Positions 2,898 through 30,182 of a stretch of 64,000 bases of DNA are shown here, one piece after another. The DNA comes from a virus. The position numbers were made by a program, and so were the translations under genes. The notes beneath the pieces are model-generated. The model had not been told where the DNA came from. It saw only the letters and a list, made by a program, of their open reading frames with translations, and made no database searches. Position 1 is the stretch's first letter. The number at the start of each line of letters is the position of its first letter. Where the stretch lies: the IMG/VR virus record IMGVR_UViG_3300025570_000007; one strand, given 5' to 3'.

Positions 2898-5223
2898 CTC
2901 TCCAGTTTATTGATATTTCGGGCGGCGCTTTTAAAGTTACGCCTGGAAGTACTAAGTTGTTTTCCATTATCTCCTGTGCTATTGGTGCAAATTCTTTTGC
3001 TTGATCTTTTCTTACGTTTATAATAAGTTGATCATGCACCTGTGCTTGTACTACAGCATCGATACCCATCTCTATAGCTTTTCTGTTGATTTTTAATGCT
3101 GCTCTGTTTACAACGGATGCAGCTAAACTCTGTAACTGGTAGTTTAAGCAGTTATTTAGTCCATTCTTATAATCTCTATATAATTGGAGTACTTCTGCTT
3201 TTCCATGCACCTCTTCAAGACGTTTTCTAAATCTCCAATCTAGCATTTGATCGCCTACCTTGCTAAAGATTACTTTCACCTTAGGTAGGTGTCTAATACG
3301 CCCTACATAGTTTTTGATATAACCATGTTCCTTAACTTGCACTCTTGATGCTTCCATCCACTCTTTTAGTTGAGGAAATCCATCTAAATACCCCTTAACA
3401 AGCACCTTAGCTTCTTTTTGAGGTATATCCAAAGTTTTACCTAGTGCAAAATCTTCCATTCCGTAGGGTACACCAAGTGCATATCCTTTTGCTTTATTTC
3501 TCTTTACTGGATCAATTTTCTTTAAGAATACTGGAGATTTAGTGTCGGGTGAAACTCCGTTAGGGTAGGTTTTTGTGTCTTGTTCTAATTTTTCAGTCTT
3601 AATTGCAATTGTTGAATAGAAATCCCATCCGTTATTGAAAATATCTTGAAGGTTCTTATCTCCTGTAACTGAGGCGAAGCAATGTGGTTCTAGTGATGTG
3701 TAATCCGCATCAATCAGTAACCTACCTTCTCCTGATATTAGAAAAGCCCTTACTAAGTTTGTATAGTTAACGATAATGGGTACATCTTCTCCTTCTTCTT
3801 TCGGTTTTGGTAGTTGTTGTGCATCTGAACCGTACCTTCCGGAAACTGTTCCGTTCTGTTTATAGTAGAAGTAGTATCTACCGTCTTCGTTGTTATCTAA
3901 AAAACGGTCAATGTATGTCGACTTTATCTTAAGCAGTTTGTTATATATTCTAAGATTTTCTGCCCAGTCGTACGTTTTGGATAGATGCTCTATCATATCC
4001 ATATCAAACTGTTCCTTACCCTTCTTAGTCTTACTCTTAGCCTTAACCCCCATATAGTTAAATACAATGTCTCCTAAGTGATCTTTTGACTGTATATTAA
4101 CTAATTCACCATCATTCTCTTCCTTCCAGAGCGACATAGATATCCTTGCTAACTCAACTTCATCCAGCAGGTTATTATCTCCTGTCTGTAAAAACTCTTT
4201 AACCTTACTGTCTTCAAGCTCTTCTATGTTCTTCTGAGTGAGTGAGTATTTACCTGTCTTTTCTGATCTTGGCAGTGGCAGTGAGTACCTATTTACCAGT
4301 TCTTGAGCCCAATTGCCTTTATGGTTAGGCGGATACTTTTTAAAAGCTGTATCCATTACCCATTCCTTAGCTTCGGGCCTAGCCAGTATACTGCCTATTA
4401 CTACTTTCTTATTTTCCTCAAGATCTTTAGTTATTTCAATTAGAGTCTTATTAAGTAGTTCCATATCTAAATCCACTCCGAAATCCTCCATTGGAATAGT
4501 TACCTCTCTGTAGATTGGCATAACTTCTTCGTTAAAGAAGAAATCTTCTAACCCCTCTTTTTCTAGTACTTTAAGAAAGTGGTAACATAGCCTGTACGTT
4601 AAATCGGTATCAGCTGATGCATATTCTGAAAGTATTTCTAGGTCTGCTTTGAAGATTTCGTAGTTCGCCTTTGTTACACTTCCTCCGTTTTTCTTAATAG
4701 ACTCTTTTAACCTTATTTGCTCTTCGTTAGCTGATTTTTCAACATCTAGTCCGATCTTATCTTGAACAGAGATAGCTAAAGGCTTTAATCCAAAGACTCC
4801 CATACCTGCTCCTTCTTCTTGAACTGTGTGAACAAGTAAGGCTGTATCAACCCAGAGCGATGGTAGTAGGTTAACCCCTAAATCGTTTTTTGTGTAACGG
4901 CAGTCAAAGGAAGCATTATGCATTATAAGCTTTTTACCTATTAACATACCCAGTAACTTAATTGAAAGCTCTCTAGCACTAGTACCGTTAATGAACTGTT
5001 CTTCTAGTACTTGCTTCTCAGCATTCCATACAAGAATAGGTAGGTAAAAACCTACTCCAAGTTTACCCGTAACTGACCATCCTATTACTTTACCTTTCCT
5101 CATATTTAACGAGGTCGTCTCTGTATCGTAGGCTAGTGCTTCCGAATCTGCTATATGTTGAAAGAGTAATCTTAGGGTCTCTTCATCCTGTACTGTGTAA
5201 TACTCTTTTTTTATTTCTTGCAT
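2887..5223 (-). CDS. polA: Family A DNA polymerase with 3'-5' exonuclease domain
   Basis: Exo motifs DTETT, HNASFD, YASAD; polymerase motifs DADYTSLE, RNKAKGYALGVPYG, QVHDQL. Confidence 0.93.
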   Translation of the reverse strand: MQEIKKEYYTVQDEETLRLLFQHIADSEALAYDTETTSLNMRKGKVIGWSVTGKLGVGFYLPILVWNAEKQVLEEQFINGTSARELSIKLLGMLIGKKLIMHNASFDCRYTKNDLGVNLLPSLWVDTALLVHTVQEEGAGMGVFGLKPLAISVQDKIGLDVEKSANEEQIRLKESIKKNGGSVTKANYEIFKADLEILSEYASADTDLTYRLCYHFLKVLEKEGLEDFFFNEEVMPIYREVTIPMEDFGVDLDMELLNKTLIEITKDLEENKKVVIGSILARPEAKEWVMDTAFKKYPPNHKGNWAQELVNRYSLPLPRSEKTGKYSLTQKNIEELEDSKVKEFLQTGDNNLLDEVELARISMSLWKEENDGELVNIQSKDHLGDIVFNYMGVKAKSKTKKGKEQFDMDMIEHLSKTYDWAENLRIYNKLLKIKSTYIDRFLDNNEDGRYYFYYKQNGTVSGRYGSDAQQLPKPKEEGEDVPIIVNYTNLVRAFLISGEGRLLIDADYTSLEPHCFASVTGDKNLQDIFNNGWDFYSTIAIKTEKLEQDTKTYPNGVSPDTKSPVFLKKIDPVKRNKAKGYALGVPYGMEDFALGKTLDIPQKEAKVLVKGYLDGFPQLKEWMEASRVQVKEHGYIKNYVGRIRHLPKVKVIFSKVGDQMLDWRFRKRLEEVHGKAEVLQLYRDYKNGLNNCLNYQLQSLAASVVNRAALKINRKAIEMGIDAVVQAQVHDQLIINVRKDQAKEFAPIAQEIMENNLVLPGVTLKAPPEISINWRDGH

Positions 5224-20461: not shown

Positions 20462-20684
20462 ATATTTTATTCTACGAGAATTCTAAGTTGAGTTTTATGC
20501 CACTAACCCTGTGGCAGATAGGAAGCCTTGTTTATACTCCCGAAACAATGTTAAACCTTGCTTTACACGGGTACTCTCTGACTTAAAGAGTGATTTTCAG
20601 TCTGTCGAATTATGTATAGTTATGTGGCTCTTAACCACCTAAGTGTTTTTCGAAGTACCTCAGTCTTTTACTACGTTAAAATAT
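20462..20684 (-). ncRNA. Y RNA-like element E (shared helix enclosing a roughly 150-nt multi-hairpin insert)
   Basis: Minus strand ACGTAGTAAAAGACTGAGGTACTTCG ... CTCAACTTAGAATTCTCGT; directly downstream of Ro60. Confidence 0.6.
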
Positions 20685-20743: not shown

Positions 20744-22288
20744 TTAAATTTCTATAGCTTCAATTGCTTTGATTACAGCTCTTGGATCTATTTCAACTCT
20801 TTTTACTAGCTCATACATTTCTGATGAGTATCCAGCTAACTGGTAAAGTTTTTGAGTTGTTGGCTTAAACATTGTAGTTGAATATCCACAGATGTTTATT
20901 GAATATACGTGCATCTTGTTATAGTTGCTTGGTGAAATGTACGAAGCTCCTTGCATATCCGAGATAATAAAGATTCTGTCGTACTTATTCCCAATCGTAC
21001 TAAAAATACCATTAAACTCAGTTCCATACCCTACAGTTCCCTGTAATTTTCTAAACTGATTTTTAATAGTATTTATACTATCTAAAGGATTGAACTTAAT
21101 TGCAGCGACACTACTAGCGAAGTGGTATACATCGGCGTTAATCCCTTTACCTAAAGTTGCAGCTACTAAAGCAGCTTTTTCAATAGCAGATTTACTACCA
21201 GGTTTCCCATTTGCTAATCTGATCGATGATCCCATTGATCCTGAACTATCAAAGATAACTGCAGTTTTACCTGCTGGAAATAGTGATGTTAGGTTCGGAA
21301 TCGCAAGTTCGTAAGCTTTATCTAGTGCTGTAATGAATGGTAACGCTTTTGACGCTCCTATATCCTGTAGTAACACTTCTAATGCTAAATCGATTTGGTG
21401 AGGGAATACTAGAGATTTTCTAATAGTTGCTTCATCTGTTAAGATAGCAATTGCTCCGTCAATCAATTCTTTATTTGAACTAGTTTGTAAGATATTACGT
21501 AAGTTACGTAGTAACGCTAAATACCCTATTTTTTTAGTTGCAATTAATTCAGCATAATTTGATTCCTTAGCTTGTGTTAACTCTACCTTAGCTTCCGCTT
21601 TAGTAATAGTACCTTCTTTTACTTTCTTAGCAACATCTTGTCCAGCTGATGTATTCTTATCTTCAACAGTGTTGAATTGCTTTAACTCTCCAGTCATTAA
21701 CTGTTTGAAAGTTTTTTGCATATCTTCACTTGGTTTTGGACGAACTAAGTTTACAATATCAACTAAGGAAACATCTTTATTCTTTCCTTGGTATTTTGCT
21801 AACTCGTAAGTATCAGCAGCCTCTAAAGCAGCTTTAAATCCTTTCTTCATTGCGTTTGGCAATGGTTTTCCGGGATTGAAGTGTTGATAACAAGCTACTA
21901 TTTCTAGTAAGTCATCTAACCTAAACACGATACCTCCTGTTTTAAATTTCTTACTTCTCTTTGAGAAGAATTTACGTGCAATTCCTCTACCTGATAGGTA
22001 AGGTGCTAATGCTACTGCTCCAAACTGGGTAACACTTCTTTGGCCCATTACAGATCTAGCATATACTAGTGCTTTAGCTACGAATTCAGGTTCTTTTTGA
22101 GCTAACTTTACGATAAGCTCTTTGAATCTAACTTCTCTGTCTGATAATTTCTCGTAATAAGTATTATCAAAACCTGTTGCTAAAATAGCAACTAATTCAT
22201 GTTTTGGATCTAATTTGTAACCTTCACCTCCTTGGTGGTTTGTTACTGTAGGTGTTGCAGTCTTTTTGTTTTTGTTGTAAACTGACAT
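20744..22288 (-). CDS. rsr: Ro60/TROVE-domain RNA-binding protein with vWA domain
   Basis: TNHQGGEGY, YQ/YELAKY-type segment, GYLALLRNLRNI, DSSGSM MIDAS, SDMQ; 514 aa. Confidence 0.9.
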   Translation of the reverse strand: MSVYNKNKKTATPTVTNHQGGEGYKLDPKHELVAILATGFDNTYYEKLSDREVRFKELIVKLAQKEPEFVAKALVYARSVMGQRSVTQFGAVALAPYLSGRGIARKFFSKRSKKFKTGGIVFRLDDLLEIVACYQHFNPGKPLPNAMKKGFKAALEAADTYELAKYQGKNKDVSLVDIVNLVRPKPSEDMQKTFKQLMTGELKQFNTVEDKNTSAGQDVAKKVKEGTITKAEAKVELTQAKESNYAELIATKKIGYLALLRNLRNILQTSSNKELIDGAIAILTDEATIRKSLVFPHQIDLALEVLLQDIGASKALPFITALDKAYELAIPNLTSLFPAGKTAVIFDSSGSMGSSIRLANGKPGSKSAIEKAALVAATLGKGINADVYHFASSVAAIKFNPLDSINTIKNQFRKLQGTVGYGTEFNGIFSTIGNKYDRIFIISDMQGASYISPSNYNKMHVYSINICGYSTTMFKPTTQKLYQLAGYSSEMYELVKRVEIDPRAVIKAIEAIEI

Positions 22289-22372: not shown

Positions 22373-22441
22373 TAAGTAGAGAATGTTAAGAAGAGCGTTT
22401 GTTTCTGAATGCGAAGTAACTCTGTCTATGACTACTACTTA
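22373..22441 (-). ncRNA. Y RNA-like element A (minimal)
   Basis: TAAGTAGTAGTCATAGACAGAGTTACTTCG...GCTCTTCTTAACATTCTCTACTTA; the termini pair. Confidence 0.65.
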
Positions 22442-22446
22442 TACTG

Positions 22447-22527
22447 TTCAAGGGAATGGGTGCAGTGGGATATTGTTAATTAGATTTGAAGTCTGAGTCG
22501 AAGTAACCCGGTTGCTAACCACTTGAA
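22447..22527 (-). ncRNA. Y RNA-like element B (helix plus anticodon-arm-like hairpin)
   Basis: TTCAAGTGGT...GGGTTACTTCG-ACTCAGACTTCAAATCTAA...CCCATTCCCTTGAA. Confidence 0.65.
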
Positions 22528-22534
22528 TATGTTG

Positions 22535-22690
22535 TTATAAGGGAATGGGTGATGACAGCTAGTTTTAACGCGCCTTTACCAATTTGGCCACCTCCCAAGA
22601 TTTCTTACTTTCTTAGTTGGGAGGGAAGGACTCGAACCTCCAAATACGTGCTCTAAATGCGATGTAACTGTATTATCTTACCACTTATAA
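22535..22690 (-). ncRNA. YrlA-like Y RNA C (permuted tRNA module)
   Basis: Shared helix encloses T arm GGAGG-TTCGAGT-CCTTC, then a loop-closed acceptor CCTCCCA/TGGGAGG, then D arm TGGCCAAATTGGTAAAGGC. Confidence 0.8.
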
Positions 22691-22703
22691 TATGTTTAAA
22701 AAT

Positions 22704-22840
22704 AAAGAAGGGAACGGCTAACAGAGTGTATATCGTGCTCTACCAACTGAGCTACTGAAGGGATATATTCCCCCAGGCTGGATTCGAACCAGCGACCACG
22801 TCGTTACAAGCGAAGTAATTCTTATTATTACCACTTTTTA
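22704..22840 (-). ncRNA. YrlA-like Y RNA D (permuted tRNA module)
   Basis: T arm GCTGG-TTCGAAT-CCAGC, closed acceptor CTGGGGG/CCTTCAG, D arm GCTCAGTTGGTAGAGC inside the shared helix. Confidence 0.8.
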
Positions 22841-22887
22841 TTTTTTTGTATTTCAATGAACTTTATAGATATTTCTATCTTATAGTA

Positions 22888-22920: not shown

Positions 22921-22968
22921 CTATTCTACTTTAATTTGAAAAAAGATTTTCTATTGGATAATATACTG

Positions 22969-23040
22969 TGTCCCCAGCAGGATTTGAACCTGCGACCAAT
23001 TCGTTATGAGCGAACCACTCTACCGCTGAGTTATAAGGAC
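22969..23040 (-). tRNA. tRNA-CAT (Met or Ile2)
   Basis: Cloverleaf, loop CTCATAA. Confidence 0.85.
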
Positions 23041-23158
23041 ATTATTAAAGAGAGTTTCGGGTCTTTCAAGGTTACTTCCCTATAGCGAGGCTAACCTTTA
23101 CCTATATCGCCAGCTGTTATGAAGCTTCACTACTCTCCTTAATGGTTTTTAAAATTAG

Positions 23159-23229
23159 AAGCGGTCGTGGGACTCGAACCCAACCGTAGGGTTATGAGCC
23201 CTGCATGCTACCAGTTACAACACCCCGCG
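23159..23229 (-). tRNA. tRNA-fMet(CAT), imperfect acceptor
   Basis: 5' CGCGGGG, GGG/CCC anticodon stem, loop CTCATAA. Confidence 0.75.
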
Positions 23230-23255
23230 ATGTTACTTTCTATTAAACTAATTAG

Positions 23256-23328
23256 CGGTCCACATGGGGGTCGAACCCACAATCTTCGCCGTGACAGGGC
23301 GACATGTTACCAACAACACTTCTGAACC
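23256..23328 (-). tRNA. tRNA-Asp(GTC)
   Basis: Loop CTGTCAC, G73. Confidence 0.85.
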
Positions 23329-23471
23329 GGTTACCTTTACATTCCAAAGGTTAAGCAGGTTTCGTTAATGGACTTTCCTTCCTTGTTTAGACTATCTGTT
23401 TTTACGCCTATATTTCAAAACTGGACTTGTTATCTAATATTCACTTAAGTAGTCATCTTAAGTTAGTTTTG

Positions 23472-23544
23472 TGGAGCCAATGGGATTCGAACCCACATCC
23501 TTTTCGTTGCAAACGAAATGCTCAGCCAGTTGAGCTATGACCCC
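23472..23544 (-). tRNA. tRNA-Ala(TGC)
   Basis: Loop TTTGCAA, G3:U70. Confidence 0.9.
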
Positions 23545-23626
23545 TAGTAAAAGTAGTTAATATGACGTTTGCTCAAGTTATGGTTGACTGCTCAGCCGTA
23601 CTTTAACGGTTCTTTAACTACTTTAG

Positions 23627-23698
23627 TACTGCCGAAGGGTTTCGATCCCTCTTTTACACCGTGAAAGGGTGGTGTCCTAGCCAGTAGACGACGGCAGC
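23627..23698 (-). tRNA. tRNA-Glu(TTC)
   Basis: Loop CTTTCAC. Confidence 0.85.
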
Positions 23699-23804
23699 AT
23701 TTAAATAGTAGGTAAGCTCCACATTTTCACTTACCTAACTTAGCGACCTCTATGGTTGTGAATCCATTTTAAAGGGGTTCCTCGGTTCTAAGTTTACTAT
23801 TTAG

Positions 23805-23877
23805 AGCGGATGATGGGATTCGAACCCACAACATTTAGCTTGGAAGGCTAAGACTCTACCAGTTGAGCTACATCCGC
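23805..23877 (-). tRNA. tRNA-Gly(TCC)
   Basis: Loop CTTCCAA, U73. Confidence 0.92.
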
Positions 23878-23882
23878 ACTTT

Positions 23883-24128
23883 CTATTTCCTGTATGCTGC
23901 TTTTATATCTTCAACACTAAACCAATCATATTCTTTCAAATCAGAAAGAAACCAGTGACATTTATAATCAAAGATATTATAACTTGGAAATACTTTTCTG
24001 TAAGAATTACCGTCAGCGATTTTGTGAGGGTATCTTCTTACTGCTTTACTTGCCATCCTTTTAGCGTGTGGAGTATAGTTTCTGCTATAATCTGATACGA
24101 CAGGATGTTTCTTTTTACTTCTGCTCAT
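23883..24128 (-). CDS. Small basic hypothetical protein
   Basis: MSRSKKKHP... ORF embedded in the tRNA array. Confidence 0.6.
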   Translation of the reverse strand: MSRSKKKHPVVSDYSRNYTPHAKRMASKAVRRYPHKIADGNSYRKVFPSYNIFDYKCHWFLSDLKEYDWFSVEDIKAAYRK

Positions 24129-24200
24129 TGTTTTCTAGTTTAACGATTAACGTAACTAGAATACAGAGTTTTTAAATTTAGTCATAGTGTTTACTTTTTG

Positions 24201-24273
24201 AGCCTCTAACCGGGATCGAACCGATGACAATCACGTTACAAATGTGATGCTCTACCAACTGAGCTATAGAGGC
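24201..24273 (-). tRNA. tRNA-Thr(TGT)
   Basis: Loop TTTGTAA. Confidence 0.9.
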
Positions 24274-24405
24274 AATTAAATTAGAATAGCGCTTGAATGC
24301 CTTTTAAGTTCTCCATCAACCTCTAACTTTTATTAAAAATAACTTGTGTTATTCAACAATATTAATTTCAACTGTTTCTAGCTACACAATAGTTATTTTC
24401 TTTTG

Positions 24406-24480
24406 TACCTGAGAAGGGATTCGAACCCTCATGACCTAGAACCTAAATCTAGTGCGTAATGCCATTTCCGCCACTCAGGC
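24406..24480 (-). tRNA. tRNA-Leu(TAG), short variable arm
   Basis: Loop TTTAGGT, Leu-type D arm, 5-nt variable region. Confidence 0.8.
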
Positions 24481-24563
24481 ATCTCTTATTATCCAATATG
24501 TCAATGATCTCACTACTATTATACCATAAATATACGAAGTTCTACTTTACCTACAAACTTTTT

Positions 24564-24737
24564 CTACTTATTTCTAATTATTTCTTCAATAATAGTGTAC
24601 CTGCTAGGGTAACTTGCAATAACATCTGTTTGGGACAAAAAAGTTATTCTTCCTTTATTTACTATATATGAATCTGCTATTATTTCTTTATAGAACTTAG
24701 CTGATGGCATATTAATATATAATTTATACTTACTCAT
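24564..24737 (-). CDS. Small hypothetical protein (57 aa)
   Basis: Hand translation MSKYKLYINMPSAKFYKEIIADSY... Confidence 0.45.
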   Translation of the reverse strand: MSKYKLYINMPSAKFYKEIIADSYIVNKGRITFLSQTDVIASYPSRYTIIEEIIRNK

Positions 24738-24752
24738 ACTATTTTAATTTAG

Positions 24753-24824
24753 AGGGACATATCGGGATCGAACCGATGTAAATAGTTTTGCAGACTATCA
24801 CCTAAGCCATTCGGCCAATGTCCC
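24753..24824 (-). tRNA. tRNA-Cys(GCA)
   Basis: Loop CTGCAAA, U73. Confidence 0.9.
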
Positions 24825-24948
24825 TTAGGTTCTTCTTCTACTATTTTTTCTGTTGTTGCGTTCATTGTAACTGATTTTTAAATTAATCTTTTAACTGTTA
24901 TTGAGACCTAAATATAATGATTAGATCTCAATTAACCAACTTTCTTGT

Positions 24949-25500
24949 TTAGAAAAGTAAATAAGGTTTCCACTCTTCCGGAATGTATGTTGTCTTCTTT
25001 AGTAACATTAAATAGTGTGGACGTTGTGGTTTTGGTATATTTTTTGTATACTCTTCTACCATTAGATCCGCTTTTTCCCCATTACATTTCTTACAAGCTG
25101 TTACTAGATTATCCCATGCGTTTGGTCCTCCTTTTGATTGAGGAATAACGTGATCTAACGTAAGTAACTTTTTTGTAGTCTGTCCACAATATACACACTC
25201 GAAATTATCTCTTTTATAGATATTCTCTCTTGTTAGTGGTACCTTTTGAAAGTTAAGTTTCACATAAGTGAATACTCTAATAATTGATGGTTTATTAATC
25301 TCTAAATTTGGATTAACAACACCGAATGTCTCTGGGTATTCTGCTATAATGTCTGCATTACCTTTAAAAGAGATTACGAAAGCTCTTTCAGTAGTGATAA
25401 TGCTTCTAGGAATATAGCTAGAATCGACTACCAGAGTTTTACTGTAGCGATTTTTCATAATTTCTACTTTTTGGGTTAATGAAACATTTTCTTTTTCCAT
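24949..25500 (-). CDS. HNH endonuclease (McrA-like)
   Basis: RDNFECVYCG, TLDHVIPQSKGG, NLVTACKKCN. Confidence 0.9.
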   Translation of the reverse strand: MEKENVSLTQKVEIMKNRYSKTLVVDSSYIPRSIITTERAFVISFKGNADIIAEYPETFGVVNPNLEINKPSIIRVFTYVKLNFQKVPLTRENIYKRDNFECVYCGQTTKKLLTLDHVIPQSKGGPNAWDNLVTACKKCNGEKADLMVEEYTKNIPKPQRPHYLMLLKKTTYIPEEWKPYLLF

Positions 25501-25556
25501 ATGCTAAAGATCGCATATAATTATAACTCTACCAACTAAATTAGTAGTTTTCTTTG

Positions 25557-25629
25557 CACGCCTGGAAGGAATCGAACCTTCAACCTTTAGTTTTGGAGAC
25601 TACTGCTCTACCGATTGAGCTACAGACGT
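25557..25629 (-). tRNA. tRNA-Trp(CCA)
   Basis: Loop CTCCAAA, G73. Confidence 0.9.
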
Positions 25630-25634
25630 ATTTA

Positions 25635-25745
25635 CTATGCCACTAATCTACTCTTAGTCTTCCACTTAACTCTGTAAGCGGTTTTGAAGGCTTTACTACG
25701 TCTTGTATTGGCGTAGCCGATCCTTAGCGATTCTTGGTTTCCCAT
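25635..25745 (-). CDS. Small basic peptide (36 aa)
   Basis: MGNQESLRIGYANTRRSKAFKTAYRVKWKTKSRLVA. Confidence 0.35.
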   Translation of the reverse strand: MGNQESLRIGYANTRRSKAFKTAYRVKWKTKSRLVA

Positions 25746-25787
25746 TAAATTACTCATTGATTTATTATTTAAAAATTTATATTTGAA

Positions 25788-26477
25788 TTAGTAGGCTATT
25801 TTTGCCCAACGTGTCTTTCCGCTCCAGATACTGTCTTTCAGTAGTATGAACGGTTGACCCTTAAGTACTACATCCCCTTTTCTTTGTGATTCTTTTGATT
25901 TTCCTATAACTCCCACTCTTATACTACGAGCAGTTTTCGCTTTCCACAGTATAGTGCTTCCTTCTACAGGCTCTATCAGCAATTCTCCTGTTGATTCCTG
26001 TATCTGTACATACCCTTTTTTGGTTAGTAGCTCTTTAATCTTATTTAAAACCTCTCCATCTTTATCTCCTCTCAATTTAATATAATCGGTGTAAGCTTCC
26101 ACAGTATTTTGGTCTTGTGCATAATCCCATAACTGGTATGTGTTTTTTTCTATCTCTAAGTGTACCTGTCTTAAGGAATCATAAGAGATTTTAATAATCT
26201 CTAATTTTACCTTCTCTCCTTGTAGATTTTCTTCTGAGATTTTTAAATCTTCCACTAAAAGTTCTGCTACATCTTTAAGTTTATTTGTTCTTAGCAGTAG
26301 TTCATTTTTTGCATCTCTTTCTCTTACTACCTCGTGTTTTGTCTCAACTGCATAGAATGCAGTAAGGAAGGAAACTATAACTAGTAACACTACTACGCCC
26401 CAAAGTACATTATTAATTGCCCTACTTTTTCGGGCATTCTTATTTGTTACTGCTATTAACTCCTTAATATTACTCAT
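25788..26477 (-). CDS. Membrane-anchored coiled-coil protein
   Basis: One N-terminal TM helix, then coiled coil. Confidence 0.6.
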   Translation of the reverse strand: MSNIKELIAVTNKNARKSRAINNVLWGVVVLLVIVSFLTAFYAVETKHEVVRERDAKNELLLRTNKLKDVAELLVEDLKISEENLQGEKVKLEIIKISYDSLRQVHLEIEKNTYQLWDYAQDQNTVEAYTDYIKLRGDKDGEVLNKIKELLTKKGYVQIQESTGELLIEPVEGSTILWKAKTARSIRVGVIGKSKESQRKGDVVLKGQPFILLKDSIWSGKTRWAKIAY

Positions 26478-26490
26478 AATTATAAACTAT

Positions 26491-26901
26491 TTATGTGCTG
26501 ATATATAATGCTAAATCACTCTCTACTGCTGTTATATCTTGTTCTGAATTAGGAAGTATCCCGTTTTCAATCCTGTTTACAGTTTTATCGAAGATTCGTA
26601 AGCCGTTTAGTTTCTGCTTTTGTACTTTTACTACGTTAAAGGACTTTGAAGCAAATGCTACCGGAAGTACCTCCCCTACAAACCCTGTTACTGTTCCCAT
26701 ATGTTCCCATAGCCCCTGTAATTTTGTAAGGAGTTCTGGCTTAAGTACGAAGAGAAGTCCAACAGCTACTGCAAGTACTATACCAACTATTATATAGGTA
26801 CGGGCTAATTTAATACGTGATTCTAAATCCTCTTTATAGAACTCGATATCATCTTTTAAATCTTCTATTAGTATTTTCTGCGCTTTTGACAGTTCTTCCA
26901 T
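26491..26901 (-). CDS. Two-TM membrane protein
   Basis: Hydrophobic segments. Confidence 0.55.
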   Translation of the reverse strand: MEELSKAQKILIEDLKDDIEFYKEDLESRIKLARTYIIVGIVLAVAVGLLFVLKPELLTKLQGLWEHMGTVTGFVGEVLPVAFASKSFNVVKVQKQKLNGLRIFDKTVNRIENGILPNSEQDITAVESDLALYIST

Positions 26902-26925
26902 AATAATAAATAGTTTGGAATATTG

Positions 26926-26998
26926 TACCCCTCCTAGGATTCGAACCTAAAGTCGCCTCTTTAGAAGAGAGGTGCTTTTCCATTTAAGCTACAGGGGC
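26926..26998 (-). tRNA. tRNA-Arg(TCT)
   Basis: Loop CTTCTAA. Confidence 0.85.
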
Positions 26999-27001
26999 AG
27001 A

Positions 27002-27230
27002 TACCTAGTTTTCGTACTAGGTAAACGTGAATCCGTGCTCCCTTAGAAACACCTAAATTCAACAGCTGCTAGGCTGCTAATGCAAAGTTGTCGTTTGCGT
27101 AAATACTAATCTACTATCATCCACGTTTTCCATTGTCAAAACCAGTCGGCCCCATGGTCTTAAAAGTCTCATAGTGGAGCCGGAGAGTATCGAACTCTCG
27201 TCCAACGAAATGTCAATAATTATCAACGAT
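27002..27230 (-). ncRNA. ssrA: Circularly permuted (two-piece) tmRNA
   Basis: 3' piece GGACGAGAGTTCGATACTCTCCGGCTCCA (27175-27203) precedes the 5' end GGGGCCGACTGGTTTTGAC (starts 27153); tag ANDNFALAA* at 27069-27098; G3:U70; outer ends approximate. Confidence 0.88.
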
Positions 27231-27240
27231 TTGTATTTTG

Positions 27241-27314
27241 TACCTCCAGTAAGACTCGAACTTACAGGTCTTAACGTCCGTAGCGTTATGTTTTTCCAGT
27301 TAAACTATGAAGGC
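27241..27314 (-). tRNA. tRNA-Arg(ACG)
   Basis: Loop CTACGGA. Confidence 0.85.
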
Positions 27315-27379
27315 AGTTGTAGGATATCGCTTAACCTACTAGATGTGATCAATATCTATTTTTTTATACGATTTTTTTG

Positions 27380-27463
27380 TACCCCTGACAAGATTCGAAC
27401 TTGCAAGCCTCTAAGGCAATAGGGCTTAAACCTATCGTGTATCGCCATTTCCACCACAGGGGC
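27380..27463 (-). tRNA. tRNA-Leu(TAA)
   Basis: Loop TTTAAGC, long variable arm. Confidence 0.9.
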
Positions 27464-27521
27464 ATTTGTAATGTCAAAAACTTCCCTAACGGAGGAAAAC
27501 TTCATTACGAGCTTATTTTTG

Positions 27522-27594
27522 GGTGAAAGACGGGGCTCGAACCCGCAATCGCTTGGACCACAACCAAGTGCTTTACCATTCAGCTACAATCACC
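27522..27594 (-). tRNA. tRNA-His(GTG)
   Basis: Loop TTGTGGT, G-1:C73. Confidence 0.88.
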
Positions 27595-27606
27595 ATGTTG
27601 CTCTCC

Positions 27607-27933
27607 TTAATACTCTTTATATATTGCTAAATTATTTTCTACTAACCAATCACTAACGTTAACTCCTTCTATATACACTTCAGCTAAGTACCTTCCGTAC
27701 TTACCTTTCTTATCTTTTCGGGTCTTAATAGTAACTTCCTTACCTAGTACTAATTCTCTTAACCTATCTCTTGAAAATTTACCTGCTTCTTTTTCTTCTC
27801 CTCTAACTTCAGGAGCATCAATTCGTAGAATTCTTAACGGTTCTGTAAATGTCATGTTAAATCCTAAATCGATTTGTGCTGTTACAGTATCACCATCGTA
27901 AACTTTAATAATTTTTGCTTTGTAAGTATACAT
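27607..27933 (-). CDS. Thermonuclease (SNase-like)
   Basis: KVYDGDT, LRIDAPE, GKYGRYLA. Confidence 0.9.
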   Translation of the reverse strand: MYTYKAKIIKVYDGDTVTAQIDLGFNMTFTEPLRILRIDAPEVRGEEKEAGKFSRDRLRELVLGKEVTIKTRKDKKGKYGRYLAEVYIEGVNVSDWLVENNLAIYKEY

Positions 27934-27956
27934 TATATTGTTTATTATAAATATTG

Positions 27957-28028
27957 TACCGATAGAGAATTTTGAAATCTCGACCTATTCCATATGAAGG
28001 AAGTGCTCTGCCTCTGAGCTATATCGGT
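27957..28028 (-). tRNA. tRNA-CAT (Met or Ile2)
   Basis: Loop TTCATAT; T loop TTCAAAA. Confidence 0.8.
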
Positions 28029-28197
28029 ATTATTTTGTGAACCATAAGGGACTCGAACCCTATACCTCCCCTCCTTTCCTACTTATAAGATCTATTAAGT
28101 ATTCATAATCAACGGAAATCACCAAGTATGTTATTGAAGTCAAGAACCTTAATCGATACAGCTCTCAGTCTCGCAATATACAGCCCATATTTTATAG

Positions 28198-28282
28198 CGG
28201 TAGATATGGGATTCGAACCCATGTAGCTTTTACACCCTACTTGTTTAGCAAACAAGCCTCTTTACCGTTTGAGTAATCTACC
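28198..28282 (-). tRNA. tRNA-Ser(GCT)
   Basis: Loop TTGCTAA, long variable arm, G73. Confidence 0.88.
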
Positions 28283-28290
28283 AGTTTTTG

Positions 28291-28362
28291 TCGGCCTAGT
28301 AGGATTTGAACCTACGACTTGCTGTGTATCGGACAGCTACTCTACCGCTGAGTTATAGACCG
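28291..28362 (-). tRNA. tRNA-Ile(GAT)
   Basis: Loop CCGATAC (C33). Confidence 0.8.
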
Positions 28363-28486
28363 TGGTGGGGAAGGTTGGATTTGAACCAACAATGTCAAAT
28401 TTCAAGTTTGATTGTTTACCGAAGTAACTCAATTGTATTACTACCATTTCTGAAGAAAGTCTACGCGAGTTGTTTATTTCTTCCCC
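28363..28486 (-). ncRNA. tRNA/Y RNA hybrid F: tRNA body (anticodon TGA, encoded CCA) with the D arm replaced by the permuted shared helix
   Basis: GGGGAAG/CTTCCCC-A-CCA, T arm GTTGG-TTCAAAT-CCAAC, anticodon arm TCAAA-CTTGAAA-TTTGA; insert GACTTTCTTCAGAAATGGTAGT...GAGTTACTTCG. Confidence 0.75.
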
Positions 28487-28496
28487 ATTTTTACTG

Positions 28497-28570
28497 CTCC
28501 TTAGGTAGGTCTCGAACCTACGACCTATGCATTAACAGTGCACCGCTCTAACCAACTGAGCTACTAAGGA
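28497..28570 (-). tRNA. tRNA-Asn(GTT)
   Basis: Loop CTGTTAA. Confidence 0.92.
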
Positions 28571-28576
28571 ATATAG

Positions 28577-28649
28577 TGGCTATTACCGGGATCGAACCGG
28601 TGACACCTAGATCTTCAATCTAGTGCTCTACCTACTGAGCTAAATAGCC
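28577..28649 (-). tRNA. tRNA-Phe(GAA)
   Basis: Loop TTGAAGA. Confidence 0.92.
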
Positions 28650-28758
28650 TGGCTGGGGTTTAGAGATTTTGTTTAATACTCTCTCCGGGGCCACCCCCTT
28701 TAAGTACTTTTTCAACCATTTTTTCCTGTTTCCTTCTTTCGGTTAGGTCTCCGCCTCG

Positions 28759-28829
28759 TGCCGCCAGTAGGAATCGAACCTACCCAGTAGAGTTTTACAG
28801 ACTCGCTCGGCACCTTGCCTGTTGTCGGC
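28759..28829 (-). tRNA. Atypical tRNA-Tyr(GTA)
   Basis: Loop CTGTAAA; short D loop; no long variable arm. Confidence 0.65.
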
Positions 28830-28835
28830 TTTAAA

Positions 28836-28972
28836 AAAATTAAGAGAAAGTTTAGAAGAGCTGTTTTGGTTGCAGATACGGGATTTGAACCCGTCACCTA
28901 TTGATTTGAAGTCAATTGCTCTACCATGTGAGCTAATTTGCGAAGTAACTCTTTCCATTACTACTTAATTTT
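28836..28972 (-). ncRNA. Y RNA-like element G enclosing a complete tRNA with UCA anticodon (tRNA 28867-28942)
   Basis: AAGTAGTAATGGAAAGAGTTACTTCG-[tRNA, loop CTTCAAA, ACCA]-GCTCTTCTAAACTTTCTCTTAA. Confidence 0.8.
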
Positions 28973-28973
28973 G

Positions 28974-29048
28974 TACTTCTTATAGGATTCGAACCTATGA
29001 CCTCTTGCGTGTAAAACAAGCGCTCTAAACCAACTGAGCTAAAGAAGT
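28974..29048 (-). tRNA. tRNA-Val(TAC)
   Basis: Loop TTTACAC. Confidence 0.9.
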
Positions 29049-29054
29049 ATTTTG

Positions 29055-29128
29055 TGCCCCCGACAGGGATCGAACCTGTGACCTTCGAGTTAAAAGCTCG
29101 CTGCTACTGCCTACTGAGCTACGAGGGC
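29055..29128 (-). tRNA. tRNA-Lys(TTT)
   Basis: Loop CTTTTAA. Confidence 0.88.
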
Positions 29129-29181
29129 AAATCCGATTCGTGTTTTTAAAGAGAACCGTATATCGGCGAAAAACTCTATTG

Positions 29182-29254
29182 TCGGGATGACAGGAGTTGA
29201 ACCTGCCGCCTCTTGCTCCCAAAGCAAGCGTCTCACCAACGAGACTACATCCCG
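29182..29254 (-). tRNA. tRNA-Pro(TGG)
   Basis: Loop TTTGGGA, C1:G72. Confidence 0.88.
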
Positions 29255-29263
29255 GAATTATTG

Positions 29264-29336
29264 TTTCCCCAGCAGGGCTCGAACCTACACTCTTTGATGC
29301 CAAAAACCAACGTGTTACCAATTACACCATGGGGAA
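29264..29336 (-). tRNA. tRNA-Gln(TTG)
   Basis: Loop TTTTGGC, U1:A72. Confidence 0.85.
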
Positions 29337-29457
29337 AGTTGCCCGTCTTTCCGGGCGTCAAACGATTGTTCAAGCGGCGAATGCCACTGCGTGGAAGAAA
29401 CCACAATTAAGAACCTCTACTTACCTACTATCGTTACACAGGCGTTGTTTTATTTTG

Positions 29458-29549
29458 CGGAAGATGGCGGATTCGAACCCCCACATCTGTTACAATACTC
29501 GCTTTTCAAGAGCGCCGCCGCTACCCAGAATCTTTCGGCTTAATCTTCC
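29458..29549 (-). tRNA. tRNA-Ser(TGA), enlarged D loop
   Basis: Loop CTTGAAA, long variable arm, G73. Confidence 0.8.
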
Positions 29550-29594
29550 TTGTACGCTACCTCCCTCCCTAAGGAAGGAAGTACCGTTATTTTA

Positions 29595-29617
29595 ATTATC
29601 CAATATGTCAATGATCT
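29595..29617 (-). repeat. 23-nt direct repeat (second copy 24488-24510), boxA-like
   Basis: AGATCATTGACATATTGGATAAT is identical at the heads of two tRNA sub-arrays. Confidence 0.7.
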
Positions 29618-29631
29618 TATACTTTTTTACT

Positions 29632-29670
29632 AAAAAAAAATCCCGAATCTTTATTTGATCCGGGATTTTT
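29632..29670 (-). terminator. Intrinsic terminator/attenuator upstream of the tRNA array
   Basis: ATCCCGGATC/GATTCGGGAT stem plus U-tract. Confidence 0.75.
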
Positions 29671-29698
29671 ATATATTGTTATATGTTGTTATATCATA

Positions 29699-29854
29699 TC
29701 AATATCCCGTATCTATTATTAATGGCTGGTTATACTTGCAAATTAAATTACTCGGTACACTAAAGCCATACCATTCCACAATCGAATTTACCCTTTTACT
29801 AAAGGACTGCATCGAGCTGCTTAAAATTGAATGTATGTTACGAATTGTTTTCAT
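29699..29854 (-). CDS. Putative attenuator leader peptide (51 aa)
   Basis: MKTIRNIHSILSSSMQSFSKRVNSIVEWYGFSVPSNLICKYNQPLIIDTGY*, between a promoter and a terminator. Confidence 0.55.
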   Translation of the reverse strand: MKTIRNIHSILSSSMQSFSKRVNSIVEWYGFSVPSNLICKYNQPLIIDTGY

Positions 29855-29872
29855 TGTTCTTGTTATCTTAGA

Positions 29873-29905
29873 TAAATATACGAAGTTTTCCTTTCCTAGC
29901 CAACT
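29873..29905 (-). promoter_or_regulatory. Bacteroidota-type promoter
   Basis: AGTTG-N20-TATATTTA. Confidence 0.65.
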
Positions 29906-29909
29906 CTTT

Positions 29910-30182
29910 CTATTTATTTTTTTTCTTTCTTTTTTCCTTAGTTATATTTGCCGGTACTATTAATTCTGATTCTAGTAAATCTCCTACTAGTGTCTCCATT
30001 CCTTTCATAAGAAATTGTACCTTGTCCTCTATCTTCTCAAAGTCTGTATGTTGATTTCTTTTTAAAGTTTCAAGCTTTGATTCAAGGGCTTTAACCTTCC
30101 TTCCTGATTTTATACAAAATACTACAAAGTATACTATTAGTACTAAAAATCCTCCTAAAATAAATGCTAATGTTGCGCTCAT
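29910..30182 (-). CDS. Membrane-anchored hypothetical protein
   Basis: N-terminal TM helix. Confidence 0.55.
   Translation of the reverse strand: MSATLAFILGGFLVLIVYFVVFCIKSGRKVKALESKLETLKRNQHTDFEKIEDKVQFLMKGMETLVGDLLESELIVPANITKEKRKKKNK

What the first reader, a model, noticed from the sequence alone, without database searches (positions are those of the whole stretch)
28363..28486. tRNA whose D arm is replaced by a circularly permuted Ro-type helix
Seen: perfect 7-bp acceptor with ACCA, perfect T arm and anticodon arm (UGA), but the D arm position holds a roughly 65-nt insert. In it the two strands of the shared helix are in swapped order and joined by CA-GAAA-TG (a GNRA-capped stem). It lacks the Ser long variable arm, and a normal Ser(TGA) gene exists at 29458. 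Inference: an inside-out Y RNA with a free CCA end, possibly a decoy or tether that presents a tRNA shape on Ro60.
Basis: partly seen in the sequence, partly recalled or inferred. Interest (0 to 1): 0.85.

Follow-up and report, generated by a model that had tools for sequence, protein, structure and literature searches.

The report
tRNA-ordered phage Y RNA with CCA
This phage gene encodes a small RNA built like a tRNA with a free CCA end, but its D arm is replaced by the hairpin "handle" shared by the RNAs that accompany the phage's Ro60 protein. It is a conserved and, as far as I could find, undescribed form of Y RNA.

Summary
On the minus strand, 28486-28363 encodes a 124-nt RNA with these parts:
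- a perfect 7-bp acceptor stem plus ACCA;
- a canonical T arm;
- a 5-bp anticodon-like arm (UGA);
- 68 nt in the D-arm position.

That stretch holds the phage's "Y module" in swapped strand order, capped by UCA-GAAA-UGG. Six other RNAs near the TROVE/Ro60 gene (20744-22288) carry the same module.

I collected 62 distinct relatives from uncultured phages. All five helices covary: 94% of cells are paired against 72-76% after shuffling, 0 of 500 shuffles reach the observed value, and there are at least 15 different acceptor sequences.

The RNA sits in tRNA arrays. In the window, tRNA-Ile starts directly after ACCA. Of 26 element-bearing records found by RNA pattern alone, 19 encode TROVE.

The anticodon differs between relatives that share one acceptor stem, so this is not a decoding tRNA. 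Members with a canonical T loop keep a GG after UUCG (35 of 36). All 16 members without that loop encode CCA themselves.

Best reading: a Y RNA in tRNA order, matured like a tRNA and docked on phage Ro60. Binding and function are untested. It is a new variant of a known kind. The scan noted relatives on other DNA (e1-5918033, e1-5753165).

The parts
28480..28486 (-). Acceptor stem, 5' strand (nt 1-7, GGGGAAG). Predicted RNase P site just 5' of G1. tRNA-Asn ends 9 nt upstream.
   Evidence: Perfect 7-bp pairing. 37 of 40 relatives have 7 of 7 pairs, with at least 15 different acceptor sequences. Spacing.
28471..28479 (-). A-rich linker (nt 8-16) in the place of U8-A9 and the D-stem 5' strand. 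Nt 4-10 (GAAGAAA) can also pair with nt 29-35 (UUUCUUC).
   Evidence: Sequence. The extra or alternative helix is seen in a subfamily only and has weak statistics.
28466..28470 (-). Stem B, first strand (nt 17-21, ACUCG). It corresponds to the 3' strand of stem B in normally ordered modules.
   Evidence: Pairs with nt 56-60. Covariation (3 of 5 pairs with changes on both sides).
28454..28465 (-). Internal-loop strand ending in the conserved UUUCU (nt 22-33). C32 and U33 pair with G46 and A45.
   Evidence: CG 35 of 40 and UA 33 of 40, with CG-to-AU and UA-to-CG swaps.
28444..28453 (-). Stem A closed by a GNRA tetraloop: UCA-GAAA-UGG (nt 34-43). This is where normally ordered modules have their 5' and 3' ends.
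   Evidence: All three pairs change on both sides in relatives (CCG/CGG, CUC/GAG, CCA/UGG, UCA/UGA and others; loops GAAA, GUAA, GCAA, GCGA).
28432..28443 (-). Bulged U44, A45-G46, and the internal-loop strand UAAUACAAU (nt 44-55). This is the conserved UAGUAAU signature of the module's 5' half.
   Evidence: The position profile is the same in 79 normally ordered and 26 permuted sites.
28420..28431 (-). Stem B, second strand (nt 56-60, UGAGU), and the invariant tail UACUUCG. The full motif GUUACUUCG is nt 59-67.
   Evidence: Invariant in alignment A1. Present in all seven modules of the window.
28412..28420 (-). G67-G68 and a linker to the anticodon-like arm. The GG is proposed to stand in for G18-G19 of a D loop and to contact the T loop.
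   Evidence: A GG within 6 nt after UUCG is present in 35 of 36 members with a canonical T loop and in 1 of 16 without one.
28395..28411 (-). Anticodon-like arm (nt 76-92): 5-bp stem and 7-nt loop CUUGAAA; 'anticodon' UGA at 28404-28402.
   Evidence: The helix covaries. The anticodon differs among relatives with the same acceptor stem.
28374..28394 (-). 4-nt variable region (nt 93-96) and T arm (nt 97-113) with loop UUCAAAU.
   Evidence: The T stem covaries.
28363..28373 (-). Acceptor stem 3' strand CUUCCCC, discriminator A, and encoded CCA. tRNA-Ile begins at the very next base (28362).
   Evidence: None of the 22 ordinary tRNAs of the array encodes CCA.
20744..22288 (-). TROVE/Ro60-homolog gene (514 aa), the presumed protein partner.
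   Evidence: Pfam PF05731, E 1e-14. Full-length match to phage phiLo Ro60, PDB 9KOP/9L5Y, E 2.5e-15.
28838..28970 (-). Normally ordered Y module that encloses a whole tRNA-like body. It is the closest sequence match to both halves of the permuted module. Five further modules lie at 22698-22845, 22535-22690, 22445-22529, 22373-22441 and 20474-20676.
   Evidence: Read directly from the sequence. Sub-threshold Rfam YrlA hits at 22734-22800 and 22566-22649.

Best explanation
The gene encodes a Y RNA laid out in tRNA order. Known YrlA Y RNAs are circularly permuted tRNAs: their ends lie in the Ro60-binding stem and their acceptor stem is a closed hairpin. Here the connectivity is the other way round. 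The Ro60 handle (stem B, a conserved internal loop with a bulged U, stem A) is closed by a GNRA loop and takes the place of the D arm. The acceptor stem is open, with a free 5' end and a 3' ACCA.

Proposed steps:
1. The RNA is transcribed as part of the tRNA array (inferred).
2. RNase P cuts at G1. The RNase P cut that makes the 5' end of the adjacent tRNA-Ile leaves ...ACCA-3'. In relatives that encode only N73-C74, host enzymes trim the end and complete CCA, as for the phage's ordinary tRNAs (inferred from anatomy and spacing).
3. The body folds into an L shape. Its elbow is formed by the T loop and the GG that follows UUCG (inferred from co-variation).
4. The phage Ro60 homolog binds the module hairpin (inferred from the shared module and from co-occurrence).
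5. The particle then displays a tRNA look-alike with an open CCA end. This end stabilises the RNA against 3' exonucleases. It probably also tethers or baits a tRNA-binding factor, by analogy with the Ro60-Y RNA-PNPase complexes.

The RNA is not a decoder, because the anticodon is not conserved.
For: Anatomy. The permutation is shown by comparison with six normally ordered modules and by identical 5'-half profiles in 79 normal and 26 permuted sites.

Conservation and covariation:
- 40 viral matches: 93.9% of cells paired against 71.8% after shuffling, 21 of 25 pairs changed on both sides, 0 of 500 shuffles as high, slid controls 40-54%.
- 42 metagenome matches: 94.4% against 76.2%.
- Seven-bp acceptor stems with at least 15 different sequences.

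Link to Ro60:
- A TROVE gene lies in the window. It is homologous over its full length to phiLo Ro60, which binds phage Y-like RNAs (PMC12135203).
- 19 of 26 element-bearing records found by RNA pattern alone encode TROVE, including 4 of 4 near-complete ones. Only 97 of 50,697 cultured phage records do.

tRNA-type maturation:
- The elements lie inside tRNA arrays, with upstream tRNAs 2-12 nt away in several relatives. The next tRNA starts 3-5 nt after the discriminator in the window, L005, L014, L050 and L082.
- N73-C74 is encoded, as in 304 of 326 ordinary tRNAs of the same loci.

Elbow and CCA selection:
- Canonical T loop and GG occur together (35 both, 15 neither, 2 exceptions; Fisher 6e-11).
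- Members without that T loop encode CCA in 16 of 16 cases, against 7 of 36 for the others (2e-8).
- Elements encode CCA in 23 of 52 cases, against 21 of 326 ordinary tRNAs (3e-11).

Not a decoder: with the same acceptor GGGGAAG the anticodons are CAU, GUA, UGA, GCA, GUG, GUU and GAA.

Precedent: M. smegmatis YrlA is cut by RNase P in its acceptor loop and receives CCA in vivo (PMC4201824).
Against: - There is no transcript, end-mapping or binding datum. The two metatranscriptome runs that hold parts of the array have no contig over the element.
- The module does not contain the published Ro-binding motif GNCGAA(N)G or CGAA. Rfam YrlA scores 13 bits against a gathering score of 69. Ro60 binding is therefore inferred from context only.
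- Part of the conservation comes from how relatives were collected: two search patterns required GGGG, GTTACTTCG and CCCC.
- The Fisher tests ignore relatedness. The T-loop-less group comprises about five lineages.
- Encoded CCA in T-loop-less members could serve RNase P recognition rather than a function of the mature end.
- The closest TROVE relative (L004, 76% identity) lacks the element, so it is dispensable.
- The single-sequence fold is not exceptional (z = -1.4).
Confidence: 0.6

Rival explanations
1. Same RNA and same Ro60 docking, but the tRNA-like ends are only a processing and stability device. They let a Y RNA embedded in a tRNA array be excised by RNase P and protected by a tRNA-like terminus. 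The CCA end and the anticodon-like loop have no partner of their own.
For: - Position inside tRNA arrays with tRNA-like spacing.
- Chen et al. proposed that CCA addition protects the RNase P-cleaved M. smegmatis YrlA.
- Encoded CCA in T-loop-less members could simply compensate for the lost elbow in RNase P recognition.
- The anticodon is free to vary.
Against: - The anticodon-like loop keeps tRNA geometry (7 nt; U33 and A37 are nearly invariant). The T-loop/GG elbow is maintained. Both would be unnecessary for a minimal RNase P substrate.
- The same phage also makes normally ordered modules inside the array (28970-28838) without such ends.
Confidence: 0.3
2. A working tRNA, Ser(UGA) in this phage, that carries an unusually large D-arm substitute and still decodes, perhaps regulated by Ro60.
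For: - Rfam's tRNA model just reaches its gathering score (29.9 against 29).
- Complete acceptor, T and anticodon arms with CCA.
- Some relatives (type 2) even keep a canonical D arm.
Against: - Orthologs with the same acceptor stem carry at least seven different anticodons.
- There are no Ser identity marks: A73 instead of G73 and no long variable arm. A Ser(UGA)-like type II gene already exists at 29549-29459.
- The T loop has been lost in about five lineages.
- ARAGORN does not call it.
- From general knowledge of tRNA-ribosome contacts, a hairpin of about 45 nt at the D-stem position should clash with the ribosome. This is inference.
Confidence: 0.05
3. A tRNA gene interrupted by an intron or by an inserted mobile copy of the Y module. 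The product would be either spliced to a tRNA or a dead gene.
For: - The module occurs many times per genome (5-8 normally ordered copies in several loci), as a mobile element might.
- The insert lies within a tRNA-like frame.
Against: - Removing nt 8-75 leaves no D arm.
- The insert is far too small for a group I intron, and no intron family matches.
- The insert, the tRNA-like arms and the junctions are all conserved with compensatory changes across distant phages. A pseudogene would not show this.
- Co-variation between a GG in the insert's tail and the T loop shows that both parts work in one molecule.
Confidence: 0.04

Closest known systems
[quoted passage not shown] 2014, PMC4201824)
   Same: A Ro60-bound Y RNA whose tRNA-like domain has a 7-bp acceptor stem that is open, with a tRNA-type 5' end and a CCA 3' end. 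It is made by the tRNA maturation enzymes.
   Different: That RNA is transcribed in YrlA order and becomes two pieces held together by base pairing. Here the gene itself is in tRNA order and the product is one piece, because the far end of the Ro60 handle is closed by a GNRA loop. The D arm is missing, an anticodon-like arm is present, and the handle has a different consensus (UAGUAAU...GUUACUUCG / ...UUCU, not GNCGAA(N)G).
Salmonella Typhimurium YrlA (Rfam RF02553; structure PDB 6CU1, Wang et al. 2018, bioRxiv 10.1101/312249)
   Same: An L-shaped tRNA mimic attached to a Ro60-binding helix. The T-loop/D-loop type elbow is kept. The gene lies near Ro60.
   Different: [quoted passage not shown] Its ends lie in the Ro60 stem, so it is a circularly permuted tRNA. 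The element scores 13 bits on RF02553 against a gathering score of 69.
Thermus phage phiLo Ro60 with its Yrl1 and Yrl2 RNAs (PMC12135203; PDB 9KOP, 9L5Y)
   Same: A phage-encoded Ro60 homolog, the closest solved relative of the window's TROVE protein (E 2.5e-15, full length), with phage-encoded partner RNAs. It forms RYPER-like complexes with host PNPase.
   Different: Yrl1 and Yrl2 are stem-bulge-stem RNAs with a CGAA motif and ordinary end topology. They are not tRNA-ordered, have no CCA end, and are not in a tRNA array.
Two-piece (circularly permuted) tmRNA genes (Rfam RF04321), one of which is in this window at 27227-27069
   Same: A tRNA-like RNA with a free CCA end whose gene order is circularly permuted relative to its relatives. 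It is matured by tRNA-processing enzymes.
   Different: tmRNA has the G3:U70 alanine identity pair and a tag reading frame, and it acts on ribosomes. The element has G3:C70, no reading frame, and a Ro60-type handle.

Membership tests
tRNA (Rfam RF00005) | Cloverleaf with 7-bp acceptor stem, D arm, anticodon arm and T arm, called by tRNA finders | tested here: inconclusive
   The acceptor, anticodon and T arms are perfect. Rfam gives 29.9 bits against a gathering score of 29, for model positions 8-63 only. ARAGORN makes no call. The D arm is replaced by the module hairpin.
tRNA (Rfam RF00005) | Anticodon and identity elements conserved among orthologs (decoding function) | tested here: not met
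   With the same acceptor GGGGAAG the anticodons are CAU, GUA, UGA, GCA, GUG, GUU and GAA. The window copy has UGA with A73 and a 4-nt variable region, which is not Ser identity.
Y RNA (functional class: noncoding partner of Ro60) | Bound by Ro60 through a conserved bulged helix | not testable with these tools
   Indirect evidence only. It carries the module shared with six RNAs around the TROVE gene. TROVE is present in 19 of 26 element-bearing records. The helix has a conserved single-nucleotide bulge next to two conserved pairs.
Y RNA (functional class: noncoding partner of Ro60) | Encoded next to or with the Ro60 gene | tested here: met
   Same strand, 6.1 kb upstream of the TROVE gene, within one run of tRNA and Y-module genes. 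In relatives it lies in the tRNA array beside TROVE.
YrlA (Rfam RF02553) | Covariance-model score at or above 69 bits; order T arm, closed acceptor hairpin, D arm, with the RNA ends in the Ro60 stem | tested here: not met
   13.4 bits, E 4.8. The acceptor stem is open, the Ro60-type stem is closed, and there is no D arm.
YrlA (Rfam RF02553) | GNCGAA(N)G motif in the 5' strand of the Ro60-binding helix (PMC4201824) | tested here: not met
   The motif is absent from the element and from the window's other modules. The conserved letters are UAGUAAU and GUUACUUCG.
tmRNA, including permuted tmRNA | G3:U70 pair, tag reading frame, pseudoknots | tested here: not met
   The pair is G3:C70 and there is no tag frame. 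Rfam tmRNA models do not match here, although they do match 27069-27227.
tRNA gene with intron (group I or bulge-helix-bulge) | An insert that is removed to give a complete tRNA | tested here: not met
   Removing nt 8-75 leaves no D arm. The 68 nt are too few for a group I intron and no intron family matches. The insert covaries and co-varies with the T loop. Splicing itself could not be assayed.

The most novel reading that the evidence does not exclude
The free CCA end is used and is not just tolerated. In this reading the RNA is a Ro60-docked tRNA mimic that is charged or captured by tRNA-handling machinery, such as a synthetase, an elongation factor or a host anticodon nuclease. The freely changing anticodon loop would then reflect an arms race with host tRNA-targeting defences. 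In the GGGGAAG subfamily, Ro60 binding might also switch the RNA from a misfolded form to the tRNA form. In the misfolded form nt 4-13 pair with the UUCUUC of the handle and the 3' strand is left single-stranded.
Probability: 0.12. Interest if true: 0.9.

Novelty: new variant of a known kind. Interest (0 to 1): 0.68.

Why it matters
Bacterial Y RNAs are known as tRNA mimics that lack a free CCA end. Whether tRNA-like ends matter for them has rested on one observation: M. smegmatis YrlA is cut by RNase P and receives CCA.

This finding is a widespread phage family in which evolution hard-wired that state into a single RNA. The family shows signs that the CCA end is under selection: CCA is encoded whenever the T-loop elbow, which the CCA-adding enzyme recognises, is lost.

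The question of what the tRNA shape on Ro60 is for becomes directly testable. Natural variants exist for comparison:
- with and without a D arm;
- with and without a T loop;
- with encoded or added CCA;
- with many different anticodons.

It also shows that the Ro60 handle is a portable module that works in either strand order. That is useful for finding further Y RNAs and for engineering.

Tried and rejected
- Reads: of the runs that hold the stretch, two metatranscriptomes contain only 100%-identical contigs over 28127-28277 and 29444-29613. None covers the element, so there is no evidence on expression or ends.
- Cultured relatives: megablast of 27000-30000 against cultured phages found nothing. 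blastn of the element found only T-arm and acceptor likeness to phage tRNAs, mostly tRNA-Tyr. The nearest cultured TROVE is at most 37% identical. No cultured phage is known to carry it.
- Cellular genomes: the strict pattern hit 7 stretches in genome contigs, of which 2 are real. Both lie on short MAG contigs that are probably phage.
- Accessory enzymes: no CCA-adding enzyme (PF01743) and no RtcB (PF01139) in the 104-kb record, which is only 63% complete.
- Single-sequence folding: the minimum-free-energy fold is the proposed cloverleaf-like fold, but z = -1.4 is not significant on its own.
Only 8 new loci held members.
- Extra helix between nt 5-13 and the UUCU region: clear in a subfamily (GAAGAAAUUC:GAAUUUCUUC, GAGAAUGC:GCAUUCUC, AGAAAGUU:GACUUUCU). 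Overall it is only slightly better than controls (mean 5.7 against 5.0; anchored 3.66 against 2.90). The predicted energy is 0.4-12 kcal/mol worse than the tRNA-like fold in 11 relatives that carry it, and equal in L005. Left unresolved.
- Discriminator versus anticodon identity: there is a hint (Met, Tyr, Lys, Phe and Pro with A73; Asp, Glu, Asn and Gln with G73), but Ser, Cys, Ile and Thr do not fit. Not significant.
- Literature: searches for Y RNA with tRNA-like, phage, TROVE or circularly permuted found no description of a tRNA-ordered, CCA-ending Y RNA. Two reviews could not be read.

Full report
**Setting**

The window is part of a 104-kb uncultured virus record that is about 63% complete. 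All the features below lie on the minus strand, in this order:
- a run of 23 ARAGORN-called tRNA genes from 29336 down to 22968;
- four short structured RNAs between 22845 and 22373, two of which give sub-threshold Rfam YrlA matches;
- a 514-aa TROVE-domain gene at 22288-20744 (PF05731, E 1e-14).

The TROVE protein aligns over its full length with the Ro60 homolog of Thermus phage phiLo (PDB 9KOP/9L5Y, E 2.5e-15). That protein binds phage-encoded Y-like RNAs and forms Ro60-Y RNA-PNPase-like complexes (PMC12135203).

**The observation**

Read on the minus strand, 28486-28363 is a 124-nt RNA. Nt i corresponds to window coordinate 28487 - i.
- G1-G7 (GGGGAAG) pair perfectly with C114-C120.
- A121 is the discriminator and 122-124 are CCA.
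- Nt 97-113 form a T arm with loop UUCAAAU.
- Nt 76-92 form a 5-bp stem with loop CUUGAAA (UGA).
- The variable region is 4 nt.

The 68 nt between G7 and the anticodon-like stem contain a long irregular hairpin:
- Stem B pairs ACUCG (17-21) with UGAGU (56-60).
- An internal loop has ...ACUUUCU on the 5' side and UAGUAAUACAAU on the 3' side. Within it, C32-U33 pair with A45-G46 next to a bulged U44.
- The 3-bp stem A, UCA/UGG, is closed by GAAA.
- The invariant UACUUCG follows stem B.

Rfam's tRNA model reaches 29.9 bits (gathering score 29) for positions 8-63 by reading GUUACUUCGGUAAAC as a weak D arm. ARAGORN does not call the gene.

**The permutation is real**

Six other RNAs of the window carry the same elements in the usual order:

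stem A 5' strand, U-A/G-G-U..., stem B 5' strand, UACUUCG, cargo, stem B 3' strand...UUC(U/C), stem A 3' strand.

The copy at 28970-28838 encloses a whole tRNA-like body and is nearly identical in both halves. It reads UAGUAAUGGAA-AGAGU-UACUUCG and GCUCU-UCUAAACUUUCU.

In the element the 3' half comes first, a tetraloop joins the two stem A strands, and the 5' half follows. Across the loci collected, the 5'-half profile and the 9-11-nt spacing to GUUACUUCG are the same in 79 normally ordered and 26 permuted sites.

**Conservation**

Relatives were collected in five independent ways:
- The window RNA as an nhmmer query finds relatives next to TROVE genes that are only 34-65% identical.
- Two anchored patterns were scanned over viral contigs.
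- One pattern that uses only module letters was scanned over viral contigs.
- One scan covered metagenomes.
- One scan covered prokaryote genomes.

A covariance model confirmed the members. The pooled set is 62 distinct sequences.

On the 40 viral matches:
- 93.9% of cells form standard pairs, against 71.8% after shuffling;
- 21 of 25 pairs have changes on both sides;
- 0 of 500 shuffles reach the observed value;
- slid controls give 40-54%.

The metagenome set gives 94.4% against 76.2%. The acceptor stem is a perfect 7 bp in 37 of 40 viral matches, with at least 15 different sequences. Stem A varies freely (CCG/CGG, CUC/GAG, CCA/UGG, UCA/UGA, CUG/CAG and others), mostly under GNRA loops.

Caveat: two of the patterns required GGGG, GTTACTTCG and CCCC, so the conservation of those letters is partly a result of how members were found. 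The covariation elsewhere is not.

**Two subtypes**

Type 1 includes the window copy. It has only an A-rich linker where U8 to the D arm would be.

Type 2 keeps a canonical D arm (GCUC...GAGC) and carries the module hairpin between the D arm and a short anticodon arm. Examples are L043:4894-5034, L054:3099-3231 and L157:1376-1511. Type 2 is exactly a YrlA-type RNA opened at the acceptor loop and closed at the Ro60 stem.

**Link to Ro60**

Of 26 element-bearing virus records found by RNA pattern alone, 19 encode a TROVE protein. These include all 4 records that are at least 90% complete. The 7 without it are fragments. Among cultured phage records only 97 of 50,697 have a TROVE match.

Binding itself is inferred. 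The module does not carry the published GNCGAA(N)G or CGAA motif.

**tRNA-type maturation**

The elements lie inside tRNA arrays.
- In the window, tRNA-Asn ends 9 nt before G1 and tRNA-Ile starts at the base after ACCA. The RNase P cut that makes tRNA-Ile would therefore leave the mature CCA end.
- The same tight packing occurs in L005, L014, L050 and L082.
- In the element-bearing loci, 304 of 326 ordinary tRNAs encode N73-C74 and only 21 encode CCA. In the window none of 22 does. The elements follow the N73-C74 rule.
- The elements encode full CCA far more often: 23 of 52, against 21 of 326 (Fisher 3e-11).

**Two internal correlations**

First, type-1 members with a canonical T loop (UUCRA) have a GG within 6 nt after UUCG. 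Members whose T loop is replaced by a GNRA or other hairpin, or by a UGAAAUY loop, lack it. The counts are 35 with both, 15 with neither, and 2 exceptions (Fisher 6e-11). This fits a D-loop-like GG contacting positions 55 and 56 of the T loop to form a tRNA elbow.

Second, all 16 T-loop-less members encode CCA, against 7 of 36 of the others (2e-8). From general knowledge, both the CCA-adding enzyme and RNase P read the elbow. Hard-coded CCA where the elbow is lost therefore argues one of two things: either the mature RNA needs CCA, or an encoded CCA rescues RNase P recognition.

The tests ignore relatedness. The T-loop-less state occurs in about five lineages.

**Not a decoder**

Among members with the same acceptor stem GGGGAAG the anticodon is CAU, GUA, UGA, GCA, GUG, GUU or GAA. 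The loop keeps 7 nt with U33 and A37 in most. The window copy has UGA with A73 and no long variable arm. A type II Ser(UGA)-like gene with G73 lies at 29549-29459, though neither ARAGORN nor Rfam calls it at threshold.

**What is known**

- YrlA RNAs are described as circularly permuted tRNAs that lack a free CCA end (bioRxiv 10.1101/312249).
- The one exception is M. smegmatis YrlA, which RNase P cuts in the acceptor loop and which then receives CCA. This gives a two-piece RNA (PMC4201824).
- I found no paper describing a one-piece, tRNA-ordered Y RNA.
- Earlier notes of this scan list the seven modules of this genome (e1-5684589, e1-5684602). They also report similar tRNA/Y chimeras on other DNA (e1-5918033, e1-5753165).

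**Open points**

- In the GGGGAAG subfamily, nt 4-13 can pair with the UUCUUC region of the handle. This would be either a pseudoknot with stem B or an alternative to both the acceptor stem and stem A. Support is weak overall.
- Expression could not be shown.
- The function of the particle remains an inference by analogy with other Ro60-Y RNA systems. The options are stabilised Y RNA, tether, or bait for tRNA-binding factors.

**Verdict**

This is a conserved new variant of the Y RNA / tRNA-mimic kind.

Noticed in passing
window 27069-27227 (-): Circularly permuted (two-piece) tmRNA gene: Rfam RF04321, 64 bits. It has a T arm, the acceptor pair GGGGCCG/CGGCUCC with G3:U70, and a tag frame reading ANDNFALAA-stop. 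The phage therefore carries a second tRNA-like RNA whose gene order is permuted.
   Followed up: partly
window 29459-29549 (-) and about 28759-28829 (-): Two odd tRNA-like genes missed by ARAGORN and below Rfam thresholds. One is a long-variable-arm Ser(UGA)-like gene with G73 and stem mismatches. The other is a possible Tyr(GUA)-like gene with a mismatched acceptor stem and an aberrant D region.
   Followed up: partly
L043:4894-5034, L053:1204-1343, L067:1698-1836, L054:3099-3231 and 3293-3436, L064:615-747, L068:868-999, L157:1376-1511, L132:9005-9129, L055:3704-3832: Type 2 relatives keep a canonical D arm and carry the permuted module hairpin between the D arm and a short anticodon arm. 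Some phages have both types side by side, and L049 has three permuted copies.
   Followed up: partly
window 28451-28483 (nt 4-10 with nt 29-35); L082:4947-5072, L160:13342-13467, L014:7143-7261, L149:9543-9683: The end of the acceptor 5' strand plus the following linker is complementary to the UUCUUC region of the handle, with compensating changes in a subfamily. This could be a pseudoknot, a co-transcriptional folding helper or a conformational switch. The statistics are weak.
   Followed up: partly
window 22968-29336 (-), all ordinary tRNA genes: Every ordinary tRNA of the array encodes the discriminator plus C74, followed by an A/U-rich trailer, and none encodes CCA. Only the two Y-module-linked tRNA-like RNAs (28363-28486 and 28867-28942) encode ACCA.
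   Followed up: yes
window 24949-25500 (-) and 27607-27933 (-): An HNH endonuclease ORF and a staphylococcal-nuclease-like ORF sit inside the tRNA array.
   Followed up: no
L227:2944-3064, L215:5469-5588, L208:7096-7231, L059:132-241: Several relatives replace the T loop UUCRANY by UGAAAUY-type loops. These could still form the U54:A58-type T-loop fold but lack positions 55 and 56. Apart from L208, they have no GG after UUCG, and all four encode CCA.
   Followed up: partly
L004 (IMGVR_UViG_3300037010_001573), between tRNA-Asn 3063-3135 and tRNA-Ile 3865-3939: The phage with the closest TROVE protein (76% identity) has no permuted element at the syntenic place. About 730 nt of other sequence lie there instead.
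   Followed up: no
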